Below, piece by piece: positions 5,697-58,564 of a stretch of DNA of 64,000 bases (position 1 is the first letter of the stretch; each line of letters opens with the position of its first letter). The stretch lies in contig OZ024749.1 of assembly GCA_964016885.1 (NCBI GenBank), positions 37,324,001 through 37,388,000 on the forward strand, in the 5' to 3' direction. This stretch comes from Eledone cirrhosa. Taxonomy: Eukaryota. The position numbers and the translations under genes are program-made. Below the pieces are notes generated by a model, which saw nothing but the letters and a program-made list of their open reading frames with translations, searched no databases and had not been told where the DNA came from.

Positions 5697-5886
5697 AATA
5701 TTGTTTCTACTTTTGGCACAAAGCCAGCAATTACCCAGTGCATTACTGGTACTTTATTTTATCAACCCCGTAAGGATGAAAGGCAAAGTCAACCTCGGCG
5801 GGATTTGAACTCAGATCGTAAAGGAACGTAACTATGCTGGAAAGCATGGTGTCCGACCCTCTACCGATACTGCCAACCCACCGCCC
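5697..5886 (-). mobile_element. SINE family A, full length
   Basis: Matches the consensus, including A and B boxes. Confidence 0.9.
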
Positions 5887-5990
5887 TTATATATATATAA
5901 TATTAATATATATATATATATACACAGAAACATATGTGAAATCCTGAACGCGGCGCCAAGCGGTTTCGGCTTGTGTGTTCTCCAAGTCTT

Positions 5991-6048
<58 letters not shown>

Positions 6049-6218
6049 GCATATATATATAAATATATATATATATACACACACACACGCATATATATAT
6101 ATATATACACACACACACACGCATATATATATATACACACACGCATATATATATATACACACACGCATATATACATATACACACACACACACGCATATAT
6201 ATATACACACACACACAA

Positions 6219-6283
<65 letters not shown>

Positions 6284-6670
6284 TAGAGAGAGAGAGAGGT
6301 GAGAGAAAGAGAGCATGTGTATATACATATACATACAAAAACTCCCTTTCGCACTTATATGTGTTTCTGTGTATGTATATTCATGTATGTATATGGAGGC
6401 ACACATGTCTTAAATATACATACGTTTGTGTGTGTGTTGACACATCTACTTTAACATTCAAACACACACAACACACACACACACACACACACACCAACAC
6501 AATATATATGTGACAGCTGGGCTATTGGTTTATTGCACTAAATTTGTCAACTCCTTCAGTCGGAACAGTGATATATTTAAAACATCACACACACACATCT
6601 ATACACACGTGTGTGAGCAAATGAGAGTGCAGTGTGTAGAACATTCCGTATGGAATGATATAGTGATAAA

Positions 6671-6705
<35 letters not shown>

Positions 6706-6873
6706 GTATATATATGTATATGTATAGACAATTTATATGTATATGCGTATATTTATAAATATGTATGTATATATATACATATATATATATATATATAATG
6801 TGTGGGTATATATATATGCAAAGTATATATGTATGTGTATGTGTATATTTATAAATACGTATATATATATATA

Positions 6874-6907
<34 letters not shown>

Positions 6908-7031
6908 GCGATATATGTATGTGTGTGTATGTGTATATTTATAAATACGTATATATATATAGTGTGTGTATATATATATATGTATATATATATATAGTGT
7001 GTGTATATATATATATGTATATATATATATA

Positions 7032-7077
<46 letters not shown>

Positions 7078-7284
7078 TATATGTATGTATGTATGTATAC
7101 ATATATATTTGTGTGTGTATATATATATATATATATACATATATTGGTATGTATAGTGGTTAATCATTTGTTCGGTTTATTCACATATGCGTTTGACATA
7201 ACCCTGGCTACTTTCAAATATTTTGTAGAACTCTGTTAGATATAGGCACATACATACACACATATCTATATACGTGAGTGTAGG

Positions 7285-7330
<46 letters not shown>

Positions 7331-7573
7331 CCCACACGTAAAAGTGTATATATCATTCCACTAGGAATAACCTGCACTGAAGAGTGTTTTTACAAACTCT
7401 AGCACACCCTTATTAAAATATGCACTCCTAGACACATGTATTCATATGAGAGTGTACACAATTGAGAGGAGCCAATACGACTAGAACTCGTGTCTCCATA
7501 TTAACGTATTGTTCTAATTAACTTTCAATATATCCACATTAACCTTTCTTCACCTTTGCACATGTCCAAGTTG

Positions 7574-11267: not shown

Positions 11268-11440
11268 AGAAGGGCTCTTGCCGTTTCAACAGCTAGGTTC
11301 AGACATGGAAACTAGCTGCTGAAACGGCAAGAGCTCAGCCGTCGGGCTCCGACACTTTCTATAGTAAAGTCATACTCATTCTATAGTAAGTCATATATCC
11401 CCAGTCTAACTCGTTTAAAACTGGTTCGATCGCTCAATAT
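11268..11440 (+). mobile_element. Divergent family B fold-back element
   Basis: Inverted repeat gctcttgccgtttca...tgaaacggcaagagc, with GAAACGGC..GCCGTC. Confidence 0.5.
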
Positions 11441-11466
11441 ATGTATATATAACTATATTTATACAC

Positions 11467-11769
<303 letters not shown>

Positions 11770-11781
11770 CACATTCCTTTG

Positions 11782-11831
<50 letters not shown>

Positions 11832-11833
<2 letters not shown>

Positions 11834-12013
11834 ACAAAGGAATTGTGGTCAGGAACCAGATGGACCATAACGCACCAGAGTACTCAATATGTAGTGTAGC
11901 AGAGTGGGAAATAGGAGAAAAGTATGACCCCGACGACAGAGCTCAAGCCGTTTCGACCGCTATTTCTAGCCGCCCAAACGGCTTGAGCTCTGTCGTCGGG
12001 GGTCATACTTTTT

Positions 12014-12017
<4 letters not shown>
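11832..12017 (-). mobile_element. Family B fold-back element
   Basis: Reverse-complement tail plus inverted repeat aaaagtatgaccccgacgacagagctcaagccgttt / aaacggcttgagctctgtcgtcgggggtcatactttt; TA flanks. Confidence 0.8.
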
Positions 12018-12062
<45 letters not shown>

Positions 12063-20651: not shown

Positions 20652-20855
20652 ACAGGAAAAAGTTTAACACCGACGGCAGAGCTCAAACCGTTTTGACGGC
20701 TATTTCTGGACTGAAATAGTCCAGAAATAGCCGTCGAAACGGCTTGAGCTCTGCCGTCGAAGTTAAACTTTTTCCTATTACCCACCCTACTACCCTAAGT
20801 ATTGAGTTCTCTGGTGCGTTATGGTACACCTGGTTCCTGATCACACCTCCTTCGT

Positions 20856-20857
<2 letters not shown>
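20652..20857 (+). mobile_element. Family B fold-back element
   Basis: ~60-bp arms centred on ggactgaaatagtcc, then the conserved tail; TA flanks. Confidence 0.8.
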
Positions 20858-20902
<45 letters not shown>

Positions 20903-23848: not shown

Positions 23849-23887
23849 TTTATATGGTTATATTTTATGAAGCTTTATATATATATA

Positions 23888-24099
23888 TAACAAAGAAATT
23901 GTGGTAAGGAACCAGATGGACCATAACGCACCAAAGTACTCAATACTTAGGGTAGTAGAGTGGGAATAGGAAAAAGTATGACCCCGACGGCAGAGCTTAA
24001 ACAGCCGTTTCGACGACTATTTCTGGACTAAAGAGCCGGAAATAGTCCAGAAATAGCCGTCGAAACGGCTTGAGCTCTGTCGTCGGGGTCATACTTTTT

Positions 24100-24103
<4 letters not shown>
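23888..24103 (-). mobile_element. Family B fold-back element retaining a CUAAAGA core remnant
   Basis: Arms span about 23967-24103. The plus strand reads CTAAAGA(24028)-gccgg...ccgtc-GAAAC-ggc..gtc-GTC-ggggtc. Confidence 0.8.
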
Positions 24104-24153
<50 letters not shown>

Positions 24154-47540: not shown

Positions 47541-47683
47541 TGTAGGGGTGTAAGCAGTAGGATCTGTAGTAGTATATGCAACAATATTACATATAGTAGT
47601 AGCAGTGGTGGAAGCAGTAGTAGTAATGCCAGTGGTGGTGCTGGTCTTGGTCGTGGAAGTACTACTACAGTGGTGTTGGTGGA

Positions 47684-47768
<85 letters not shown>

Positions 47769-47907
47769 ATAATAATAATAATAATAGTAAGAAGAAGAAG
47801 AAGAATAGTAGTAGTGGTGGTGTTGGTATTGGTCGTGGAAGTCCTACTACAGTGGTGTTAGTGGAAGAAGTACTACTGCTACTACTGATACTAGTAGTAA
47901 TAGTAGT

Positions 47908-48121
47908 AGAATTTTCTCAACCAGTAGAGCAACAGTACAGTTTAAATATCCATTTAGAGTGGACATAATTTCAATGACACTCACCATAACTACTACTACT
48001 ACTATTACTACCACTACTACTAGTAGTAGTAGTAGTAGTAGTAGAATTTTCTGAACCAGTAGAGCACCAGTAGTTTAAATATCCATTTAGAGTGGACATA
48101 ATTTCAATGACACTCACCATA

Positions 48122-48180
<59 letters not shown>

Positions 48181-48305
48181 CACTACCACTACCACTACTA
48201 CTACCACTACTACTACTACTACTAGTAGAATTTTATGAACCAGTAGAGCACCAGTAGTTTAAATATCCATTTAGAGTGGACAGAATTTCAATGACATTCA
48301 CCATA

Positions 48306-48397
<92 letters not shown>

Positions 48398-48474
48398 AAT
48401 TTTATGAACCAGTAGAGCACCAGTAGTTTAAATATCCATTTAGAGTGGACAGAATTTCAATGACATTCACCATA

Positions 48475-48523
<49 letters not shown>

Positions 48524-48623
48524 GTAGTAGTAGTAGTAGTAGTAGTAGTAGAATTTTATGAACCAGTAGAGCACCAGTAGTTTAAATATGCATTTAGAGT
48601 GGACAGAATTTCAATGACATTCA
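47908..48623. repeat. Five-unit version of the same array
   Basis: Same unit with one more copy. Confidence 0.9.
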
Positions 48624-49108
48624 TTTACTTTAACGGAAACAAAGAAAGAAGGAATATTTAGTTATTTATTTATTTATCTATATATTTATTTATTCATTTA
48701 CTTACTTATTACTCCGAACAGAAAAAAGTAATTTATTCTTGTAACCTAACAAAGCTAGCAGTGGGAGGAGAGGGAGGAGGTAGCTAAATATAGCGGAAGC
48801 ATTGTAAATATTTGCATGAGATGGCATGTTACTGTGTTGACATGTGCAGTTTCAGTGTGCAATAACTGCAGTCTTACTGCTGCCTCACACACTGCAGTCT
48901 CACACATTACAGGCAGAGACTTTATTTATGTGCAGATATTGATTATATACTCTTTAGCATTATGTATGTATTTTAACACTAAAGAAATTACACCGTTTAA
49001 AAAGTGGCATATTACCTACATTGGATGGCTGCGTGCCTGGTTTCTTTCTGTGTACGTACGTACGTGGTGCATGTATGTATATATGTTTACATATGCATAT
49101 ATATATAT

Positions 49109-49224: not shown

Positions 49225-49387
49225 CACAGAGGGTATGGTAAGATACCACAGGTGGACCATAGCGCACTAGAGTACTCAATACTTAGTGTAGTAGAGTGGG
49301 TAATAGGGAAAGAGTCAGGACCCCGACCGCTGAGCTCCAGCCGTTTCGACAGTTAGATTTGAAACGGCAGGAGCTCAGCTATTTTCC

Positions 49388-49389
<2 letters not shown>
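49225..49389 (-). mobile_element. Family B element (divergent)
   Basis: ggtggaccatagcgcactagagtactcaatacttagtgtagtagagtgggtaatagg plus a partial fold-back. Confidence 0.7.
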
Positions 49390-49422
<33 letters not shown>

Positions 49423-49431
<9 letters not shown>

Positions 49432-49977
49432 TAAACAAATAATGAATAAAACAATGAAACAGTTCCTTATATTAAACAAAAAAAGTTCATTATTTAACGA
49501 TCGTTTCTAGGATATACATGTGTTAGAATTGGCATGCATATTCAACAGATCTATGTACAAAATTATACAAAATTATACAAACTATCAAGATTAAATATAC
49601 ATACCAAACACACATATATGCCGTCTTCATTATTTCTGAAGACGGCATATATGTGTGTTTGGTATGTATATTTAATCTTGATAGTTTGTATAATTTTGTA
49701 TAATTTTGTACATAGATCTGTTGAATATGCATGCCAATTCTAACACATGTATATCCTAGAAACGATCGTTAAATAATGAACTTTTTTTGTTTAATATAAG
49801 GAACTGTTTCATTGTTTTATTCATTATTTGTTTAATATTTTATCTTGACTCTGTATTCCGTTTATCTTTCACCGAAAGTGATTTTTCATTACATCTCTTC
49901 TTTCCATGATATCCGGAATACATTGAGTTCTTCATACGGATTGGACACTACCGTAAACTCTTGGTAGATTTATCTAC

Positions 49978-49978
<1 letters not shown>
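49423..49978 (+). mobile_element. Long fold-back element with 207-bp inverted arms and a hammerhead
   Basis: 49423-49629 is the reverse complement of 49637-49843 with a 7-nt spacer; ~135-bp unique tail; TA tracts on both sides. Confidence 0.85.
49626..49780 (+). ncRNA. Type I hammerhead ribozyme with ~116-nt stem II
   Basis: UUCAUUAUUU-CUGAAGA(49636-42)-long imperfect hairpin-GAAAC(49759-63)-GAUC-GUU-AAAUAAUGAA. Stem I is 10 bp and stem III is the palindrome AACGAUCGUU. The base of stem II is non-canonical. Confidence 0.7.
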
Positions 49979-50014
<36 letters not shown>

Positions 50015-50019
50015 GGAAA

Positions 50020-50331
50020 AGACTCGGGACCTCACTATTACACACTCTACTACCCTAAAAGTATTGAGTACTCTGGTGCGTTATGGTCCACCTGGTATCT
50101 TAGTACACGCTCTCTGTTATATATATATAGGAACGAGTAGGACGGCTAATTCTGGACTAAAAAAAAAAAAAAAAAAAGAATTAGCCGTCGAAACGGCTTG
50201 AGCTCAGCCGTCGAAACGGCTTGAGCTCAGCCGTCGGGGTCCTACTCGTTTCTATTACCCACTCTACTACCCTAAGTATTGAGTACTTTGGTGCGTTATG
50301 GTCCACCTGGTTCCTTACCACATTTCCTTCG

Positions 50332-50333
<2 letters not shown>
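50020..50333 (+). mobile_element. Two tandem family B elements
   Basis: 50020-50120 is tail only. 50128-50333 is a fold-back with an A-run at the junction and a 23-bp duplication. A further relic is at 58312-58415. Confidence 0.75.
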
Positions 50334-50375
<42 letters not shown>

Positions 50376-58250: not shown

Positions 58251-58564
58251 TGAGATCTTGCCATTTTAACATCTAGTTCAAGTCTAAAACTAATTGTTGA
58301 AAGTTCAACAGGTCAGCCGTCGGTTCCTGACACGTTATAATACTCTACTACCCCAAGTATCGAGTACTCAGTTTAGTAATGGTCTAGCAAATTTTAAACT
58401 GGTTCTATCATGATTTATATATATATATATTGACCCGCAGAAGGTGAAACTATTGTTCTCGGTATGGTGAAGTAACTGATGTGTTACTACTTCTACCAAA
58501 CTCGTCCCATGTACAGAGTGCTCTACCACTACGGATATTACCTTCCAGTGTTCTACCTATATAT

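What the first reader, a model, noticed from the sequence alone, without database searches (positions are those of the whole stretch)
49423..49978. 421-bp perfect palindrome hiding a hammerhead with a ~116-nt stem II
The 207-bp arms show no mismatch I can see, so the insertion looks young. The right arm plus spacer forms a 10-bp stem I, CUGAAGA, a long G.U-rich stem II hairpin, and GAAAC-GAUC-GUU. The left arm is cut exactly at the core C, switching at a TTCA microhomology. Standard motif searches with short stem II limits would miss it. The DNA could also extrude a cruciform or yield long dsRNA.
Basis: partly seen in the sequence, partly recalled or inferred. Interest (0 to 1): 0.75.

Follow-up and report, generated by a model that had tools for sequence, protein, structure and literature searches.

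The report
Twin-primed Penelope stub, long-stem hammerhead
This perfect DNA palindrome is a short back-to-back insertion of a very young, abundant Penelope-like jumping gene whose end carries a predicted self-cutting RNA with an unusually long stem, and the ends of its many sister copies suggest that both cut strands of the target DNA likely prime copies of one capped RNA, a testable answer to how this class builds its mirror-image ends.

Summary
Real, not an artefact: 207-bp arms are 100% complementary, and the same 27-nt junction occurs at 54 genomic sites. The 556-bp insert is the 3' end (pLTR) of a young Penelope-like retrotransposon with Hydra-clade motifs (6.64-kb unit, 822-aa ORF; 5,444 exact 26-mer matches), inserted in (TA)n. 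The type I hammerhead motif is as described. Its 116-nt helix II far exceeds published Hydra hammerheads and persists (99-116 nt) across subfamilies; cleavage is untested and covariation weak. Among 100 copies, 3' ends fall at two sites (49843, 49978); 25 of 25 inverted pairs use one of each; 8 loci have non-overlapping arms, excluding simple fold-back. 5' ends pile up at A49629 (46 of 83 within 13 nt) with an excess of non-genomic G (25% versus 5%), the signature of a capped RNA start, not of the ribozyme cut (49770). Best model: twin priming at two fixed sites on one capped sense RNA, both copies running off its 5' end. Inverted pLTRs and hammerheads are known; the long helix II, 135-nt tail and this footprint are the variant. 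Earlier scan notes reached the same reading on other DNA of this genome. No RNA data.

The parts
49388..49425 (.). (TA)n target microsatellite, left side
   Evidence: sister copies are flanked by (TA)n
49423..49629 (-). Inverted arm = reverse complement of 49637-49843; inferred cDNA started at the inner site 49843
   Evidence: the outer end is the same in 58 of 100 sampled copies
49629..49629 (+). Inferred capped transcription start (TTC-A-TT, initiator-like; consensus recalled)
   Evidence: mode of 5' ends, 18 of 83; G before it in 433 of 1,753 non-genomic junctions
49626..49635 (+). Hammerhead stem I, 5' strand (7 bp if the RNA starts at 49629)
49636..49642 (+). Catalytic core CUGAAGA
   Evidence: both core halves intact in 95 of 108 copies
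49643..49758 (+). 116-nt helix II rod; carries a private G49749 present on both arms
49759..49770 (+). Core GAAA, 2-bp palindromic helix III (dimer type), predicted cut after U49770 (A in sister subfamilies)
49771..49780 (+). Stem I, 3' strand
49844..49978 (+). 135-nt 'tail' between the two fixed 3' ends (inferred RT start sites 49843 and 49978); in masters it runs on into the 5' UTR and ORF
49979..49995 (.). (TA)n target microsatellite, right side

Best explanation
The 556-bp insert is a 5'-inverted stub of a young Penelope-like retrotransposon with Hydra-clade motifs, likely made when both nicked strands of a (TA)n target each primed reverse transcription at a fixed site on one capped sense RNA. 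Shown: family, target, two fixed 3' ends, one-of-each pairing, matching arms, 5' ends clustered at A49629 with extra G. Inferred: (1) an internal promoter starts a capped RNA at A49629, so the hammerhead is the first thing in the transcript; (2) the RT-endonuclease nicks both strands of (TA)n and starts one cDNA at 49843 and one at 49978; (3) the 49978 cDNA either stops inside the tail (non-overlapping arms) or displaces the first cDNA and also reaches the cap; (4) the two cDNA 3' ends join through 1-4 nt of homology or filler, giving the palindrome. The hammerhead is predicted to be mostly off in this RNA (7-bp stem I, 2-bp helix III) and would cut only as a dimer or with protein help, possibly in tandem transcripts.
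For: Master: 6,643-nt unit, 822-aa ORF with RWR, DKT, YRDD, CxCx5C, VY-YIG, CxxC, CxH, matching the Hydra description. 3' ends in 100 copies: 58 at or within 14 nt of 49843, 42 at 49976-49978. 25 of 25 head-to-head pairs use one of each (my count; one search gives p=3e-8 for 24). 8 of 26 selected loci have arms that do not overlap. Arms match: 12 of 20 pairs have 0 differences versus 16 of 380 cross-pair comparisons; no common variant was discordant in 24 pairs, and this locus's private G49749 is on both arms. 5' ends: 46 of 83 at 49625-49637 versus 0 of 26 for pLTRs that run into the body, p=8e-8. Extra G: 433 of 1,753 versus 5 of the first 100 at the next base, p=4e-7; an untemplated G is read as a cap signature for L1. 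In vitro an Anolis PLE protein nicks and extends both strands and starts RT at two internal sites that bound the tail.
Against: No RNA data. If long transcripts also began at A49629, some body-linked pLTRs should end there; 0 of 26 do, so long copies need another template (multimer, read-through or circle), which is unexplained. Three quarters of non-genomic junctions lack G, and that class also holds ends at 49630 and possibly chimeras. The sample is the first 100 matches on one contig. In a sister subfamily a tRNA-like SINE sits repeatedly at the same base, hinting that the site may also be a DNA-level hot spot. Covariation in helix II did not beat shuffles. Matching arms could also come from gene conversion or from two RNAs of one source locus.
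Confidence: 0.68

Rival explanations
1. Fold-back (self-priming): one cDNA or antisense RNA snaps back at a short homology such as TTCA and copies itself; the endonuclease then trims one arm at 49843. This is close to the first reader's idea and to the antisense self-priming proposal of Arkhipova et al. 2013.
For: Explains identical arms and the recurring TTCA junction (54 loci); published as the best reading of head-to-head PLE palindromes (passage).
Against: 8 loci have one arm 49978 to about 49858-49945 and the other 49843 to 49625-49731, so neither can be a copy of the other. Solo copies end at 49843 with no partner. The extra G lies at the sense 5' end.
Confidence: 0.12
2. The pile-up at 49629 is a DNA cut or an RT stall (endonuclease nick at an ATT motif, or arrest at stem I), not an RNA start.
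For: The Anolis PLE endonuclease prefers 5'-ATT-3' and 49629 begins ATTATT; a SINE repeatedly abuts the same base in a sister subfamily.
Against: A sequence-set cut or stall should also act on body-linked pLTRs, yet 0 of 26 end there; it does not explain the G excess at this base alone.
Confidence: 0.12
3. Ribozyme cleavage defines the template end and so the centre of the palindrome.
For: Core intact in 95 of 108 copies. 2 of 12 loci fetched for a non-T base before 49771 are junctions at the cut site.
Against: Only 1 of 100 sampled copies begins at 49771; the other 10 of those 12 loci are an A17 subfamily; such junctions can also arise from stem I homology.
Confidence: 0.04
4. Sequencing or assembly fold-back artefact.
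For: Perfect arms; this locus was not bridged in independent reads.
Against: Different flanks on both sides; 54 loci share the junction; fixed outer ends; the same turn in another organism's contig.
Confidence: 0.02

Closest known systems
Hydra clade of C-terminal EN+ Penelope-like elements (Craig et al. 2021, PMC8557442; passages and supplement parts seen)
   Same: DKT and RW(K/R) motifs, CxCX5C linker, CxxC and CxH around the conserved E and N, (TA)n target, type I hammerhead with palindromic helix III and often U at the cut site; one member is listed with a 5'-truncated inverted copy.
   Different: Listed Hydra elements are 1.1-3.0 kb with helix II of 3-7 bp and loops of 3-10 nt; this unit is 6.64 kb with a 99-116-nt helix II. 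The tail is 135 nt, not the 30-40 bp given for PLEs. No tree was built.
Poseidon_Ac (PAc) of Anolis (Frangieh et al. 2024, PMC11167929; parts 1-2 of 4 read)
   Same: Both strands nicked and extended, AT-rich target, two internal RT starts bounding the tail, hammerhead not needed for insertion and active only with protein.
   Different: Different clade; starts lie inside the ORF there and in the 5' UTR here; the parts read do not derive inverted ends or a cap footprint.
Penelope of Drosophila virilis and Adineta vaga PLEs (PMC2377424, PMC3846280; passages)
   Same: Internal promoter in the pLTR, partial tandems, head-to-head inverted pLTR, optional tail.
   Different: Inverted ends were ascribed to self-priming on an antisense template; the copies here point to a sense, capped template and two primers.
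L1 twin priming
   Same: Two target strands prime cDNA on one RNA and give a 5' inversion.
   Different: In L1 the second start is variable and the arms do not overlap; here both starts are fixed and the arms usually overlap fully.
Metazoan non-LTR retrozymes (bioRxiv 10.64898/2026.07.22.740005, part 1 of 5 read; PMC7229834, listing only)
   Same: Type I hammerhead linked to PLEs.
   Different: Retrozymes are tandem non-coding monomers; this is the end of an autonomous element, with one complete core per insertion at this locus.

Membership tests
EN+ Penelope-like element | Single ORF with RT and C-terminal GIY-YIG endonuclease | tested here: met
   822-aa ORF with FDID/YRDD and VY..YIG motifs read by eye. 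Pfam gave no significant hit and PDB none, so this rests on motifs and on visual match to the Hydra alignment.
EN+ Penelope-like element | Partial tandem forming pLTRs; inverted 5'-truncated copy; optional tail | tested here: met
   the tail is 135 nt rather than 30-40
EN+ Penelope-like element | Hammerhead motif in the pLTR | tested here: met
Hydra clade | DKT, RWK-like motif, CxCX5C linker, CxxC and CxH in the EN domain | tested here: met
   SDKTG, VRWRA, CNCRNKANC, CRLC, CNH in P0001 against the text
Hydra clade | (TA)n insertion | tested here: met
Hydra clade | Short element (under about 3 kb) | tested here: not met
   6,643-nt unit with a long simple-repeat 3' region; the paper says 'generally short', so this is descriptive rather than defining
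Hydra clade | RT phylogeny groups with Hydra | not tested
   reference proteins were seen only in a paper supplement and were not entered into tools
Type I hammerhead ribozyme | CUGANGA, GAAA, UH, helices I-III | tested here: met
   H17 is U, or A in sister subfamilies
Type I hammerhead ribozyme | G10.1-C11.1 pair closing helix II next to the core | tested here: inconclusive
   one extra base 5' and two 3' of the first G-C pair, or C.A then G.U; listed Hydra motifs often carry one extra base a side
Type I hammerhead ribozyme | Covariation supports the helices | tested here: inconclusive
   96.7% of cells paired, 1 of 53 pairs with a two-sided change, not above shuffles; copies too alike
Type I hammerhead ribozyme | Self-cleavage after 49770 | not testable with these tools
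   needs in vitro transcription
Non-LTR retrozyme | Tandem non-coding monomers each with a hammerhead | tested here: not met
   single pLTR stub of a coding element

The most novel reading that the evidence does not exclude
Thousands of stubs record a two-template life cycle: a capped RNA that starts 7 nt before the hammerhead core is twin-primed at two fixed sites and yields palindromic 'strong-stop' stubs, while tandem transcripts pair their palindromic helices III, self-cleave and circularise to a 6.64-kb RNA that is copied past unit length (hence 0 of 26 long copies stop at the start site). The 100-nt helix II would then be a docking or regulatory arm for the element's protein.
Probability: 0.25. 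Interest if true: 0.8.

Novelty: new variant of a known kind. Interest (0 to 1): 0.52.

Why it matters
How Penelope-like elements build inverted ends, and which RNA strand they copy, is stated as open in the papers seen. Here the copy population gives base-exact predictions: start of the capped RNA (49629), two RT starts (49843, 49978) and a cut site (49770), with intact ORFs available for an in vitro test. It also shows that hammerheads with a 100-nt helix II exist in an active animal family and escape Rfam, so hammerhead counts are underestimates. Hundreds of perfect palindromes are potential sources of long dsRNA and DNA hairpins in the host (not tested).

Tried and rejected
Rfam at gathering thresholds: 0 hits. 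Pfam and PDB sequence searches with the ORF: nothing significant. Sequencing-run search: no RNA holder listed; this says nothing on expression. Laying contigs on the junction: no bridging piece listed. The first extension script mis-called 5' ends at indel variants (only its 3' ends are used); the local aligner over-ran into AT-rich filler; exact-match classing was used instead. Counting non-T bases before 49771 as cut-site ends failed: mostly an A17 subfamily. A replicate cap-G test in the sister subfamily was confounded twice: by a templated T (99 of the first 100) and by SINE junctions (G in 12 of the first 100; 6 of 10 fetched loci were SINE-linked). Two sister-subfamily insertions show G three bases further upstream, too few to count. 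The idea that full-length copies begin at 49629 was not supported. Cleavage at UUC/A49629 by an alternative hammerhead fold was rejected by inspection: no stems I and III form. A stem I on/off switch between read-through and start-site RNA is only partly supported: P 0.90 versus 0.006 for short fragments, but 0.05 or less for every start once RNA extends to 49843. No earlier scan note matched this sequence.

Full report
Observation. The palindrome is as described: arms 49423-49629 and 49637-49843, 207 nt, 100% complementary, 7-nt spacer, between (TA)n runs. The right part holds a type I hammerhead motif: 10-bp stem I, CTGAAGA at 49636, 116 nt, GAAA at 49759, the palindrome AACGATCGTT, and a predicted cut after U49770. 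A scan of both strands of the window gave 2 such motifs. Rfam found nothing. Helix II folds as a 44-pair rod with 7 G.U pairs, z -7.2 against 300 shuffles.

Family. 49626-49978 has 591 candidates in the 3.0-Gb own genome; all 40 scored were 99-100% identical. A 26-mer from it occurs 5,444 times. Copies end in (TA)n; some run on into a body. Two such loci hold an ORF of over 800 aa in a 6,643-nt unit that forms tandems and long inversions; 150 of 150 scored matches to its C-terminal 167 aa were 99-100% identical. The protein has RWR, DKT, YRDD, CxCx5C, VY..YIG, CxxC and CxH. These match the description of the Hydra clade of Penelope-like elements in Craig et al. 2021 (passages; alignment excerpts compared by eye). 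Pfam and PDB gave no significant hit; no tree was built. An earlier scan note calls the host an octopus; I did not test that.

Not an artefact. The exact 27-nt junction occurs at 54 places. A contig from another organism and study leaves the element at 49629 and continues as the inverted arm. This locus was not bridged in independent data.

Two fixed 3' ends. I took the first 100 listed 26-mer matches (all on contig C1). 58 end at or within 14 nt of 49843 and 42 at 49976-49978. In all 25 head-to-head pairs where both arms carry the 26-mer in one fetched locus, one arm ends at each site (my count; L103, body-linked, and L123, convergent, left out; p=3e-8 for n=24). In 8 of 26 loci chosen for lacking such a partner, the 49978 arm stops inside the tail while the 49843 arm runs further 5', so neither arm can be a copy of the other. 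Frangieh et al. 2024 (parts 1-2 of 4) showed in vitro that an Anolis PLE protein nicks and extends both strands and starts RT at two internal sites bounding the tail. I infer that 49843 and 49978 are such sites; the tail is 135 nt here against 30-40 bp in that literature.

One template. 12 of 20 pairs have identical arms against 16 of 380 cross-pair comparisons. No common variant was discordant in 24 pairs; 7 rare variants were on both arms and 4 on one.

Where the arms meet. Of 83 sampled copies that keep the core, 46 have their 5' end at 49625-49637, mode A49629 (18); 37 run further; 17 lacked the core match. Genome-wide, 1,753 copies have a non-genomic base before A49629 and 433 of these have G; one base later, 345 copies, with G in 5 of the first 100 listed; p=4e-7. 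An untemplated G is read as the mark of a capped template for L1 (passage). The site reads TTC-A-TT, an initiator-like word (consensus recalled), and Penelope has an internal promoter in its pLTR (passages). Only 1 of 100 copies starts at the cut site 49771. So the palindrome centre most likely marks the RNA start, and the copied RNA was uncut.

Against this reading. pLTRs that continue into the body do not stop there: 0 of 26 that reach the site (30 examined; p=8e-8). That argues against a sequence-set stall or nick, but it also means long copies came from a template without this end, such as multimers, read-through RNA or a circle (the last proposed by Cervera and de la Pena 2014, parts 1-2 of 4). 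The replicate G test in a sister subfamily was confounded. A SINE repeatedly abuts the same base in that subfamily, which leaves a DNA-level hot spot open.

The ribozyme. Both core halves are intact in 95 of 108 copies, with helix II of 105-116 nt; more distant copies keep a 99-106-nt rod, have A at the cut site, and in the oldest a G.U in stem I. The Hydra motifs listed in the 2021 supplement have helix II of 3-7 bp with loops of 3-10 nt, and several have U at the cut site; the longest loop in that table is 35 nt, in a spike-moss element. On 35 sequences (the window plus 34 of 45 distinct haplotypes), 96.7% of cells pair but only 1 of 53 pairs changes on both sides, no better than shuffles. 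The hammerhead fold is favoured for 49626-49790 (stem I P=0.90), not from 49629 (0.006), and not once the RNA reaches 49843 (0.05 or less); at this locus RNA entering through the left arm gives P=0. The 2-bp palindromic helix III suggests dimer-dependent cutting, as described for metazoan PLE hammerheads. Activity is untested.

Model. Shown: family, target, two 3' ends, pairing rule, matching arms, 5' cluster, G excess. Inferred: capped start at A49629; both target strands prime on one sense RNA; the outer cDNA displaces the inner one; the 3' ends join by minimal homology. Confidence 0.68.

Comparison and novelty. Hammerheads in pLTRs, inverted 5' copies, tails and (TA)n targeting are known. 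The explanation I saw in print for the inversions is self-priming on an antisense template (passage), which the non-overlapping arms contradict for this family. Searches listed no paper whose title or abstract start applies twin priming to PLEs or reports a 100-nt helix II; I did not open most listed papers, and the library lacks most subscription papers. Earlier notes of this scan reached the same reading for other elements in this genome; I had stated mine before looking, and theirs is not independent support. Verdict: new variant of a known kind, interest 0.52.

Noticed in passing
window 49225-49392, 50015-50120, 50130-50335; also 2795-2924, 11310-12018, 20723-20858, 23887-24104, 58286-58384: A second short repeat family in (TA)n carries only the 3' half of a hammerhead (GAAACGGC...GCCGTC, GUC site), often folded back on itself; looks like stubs of another Penelope-like family.
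   Followed up: partly
window 27463-27392 (minus strand): Another complete hammerhead motif: CTGATGA, 49-nt helix II, palindromic helix III.
   Followed up: no
L219, L222, L223, L224, L225, L226, around position 1500: In an older subfamily a tRNA-like SINE sits directly before the A49629-equivalent, with upstream overlaps of 3-17 nt and twice in tandem in L223, as if inserted repeatedly at one base.
   Followed up: partly
L031:85-1612 vs 5819-7409; G000 C6 near 49.53-49.56 Mb; C1 near 183.74 Mb: Full-length copies form kilobase inversions and tandem arrays with a period of about 6.65 kb and open ORFs.
   Followed up: partly
L064, L081, L017, L023 junctions: Junction filler often consists of repeated re-copies of the first 10-15 bases of the inferred RNA start, as if RT slipped at the template end.
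   Followed up: no
window 49685-49710: A 10-nt tandem duplication at the tip of helix II; copies lacking one unit have a 105-nt helix II.
   Followed up: partly
window 47620-48625: Irregular repeat of about 133-184 nt with (TAC)n/(TAG)n inverted runs and a conserved 45-nt core in 5 copies.
   Followed up: no
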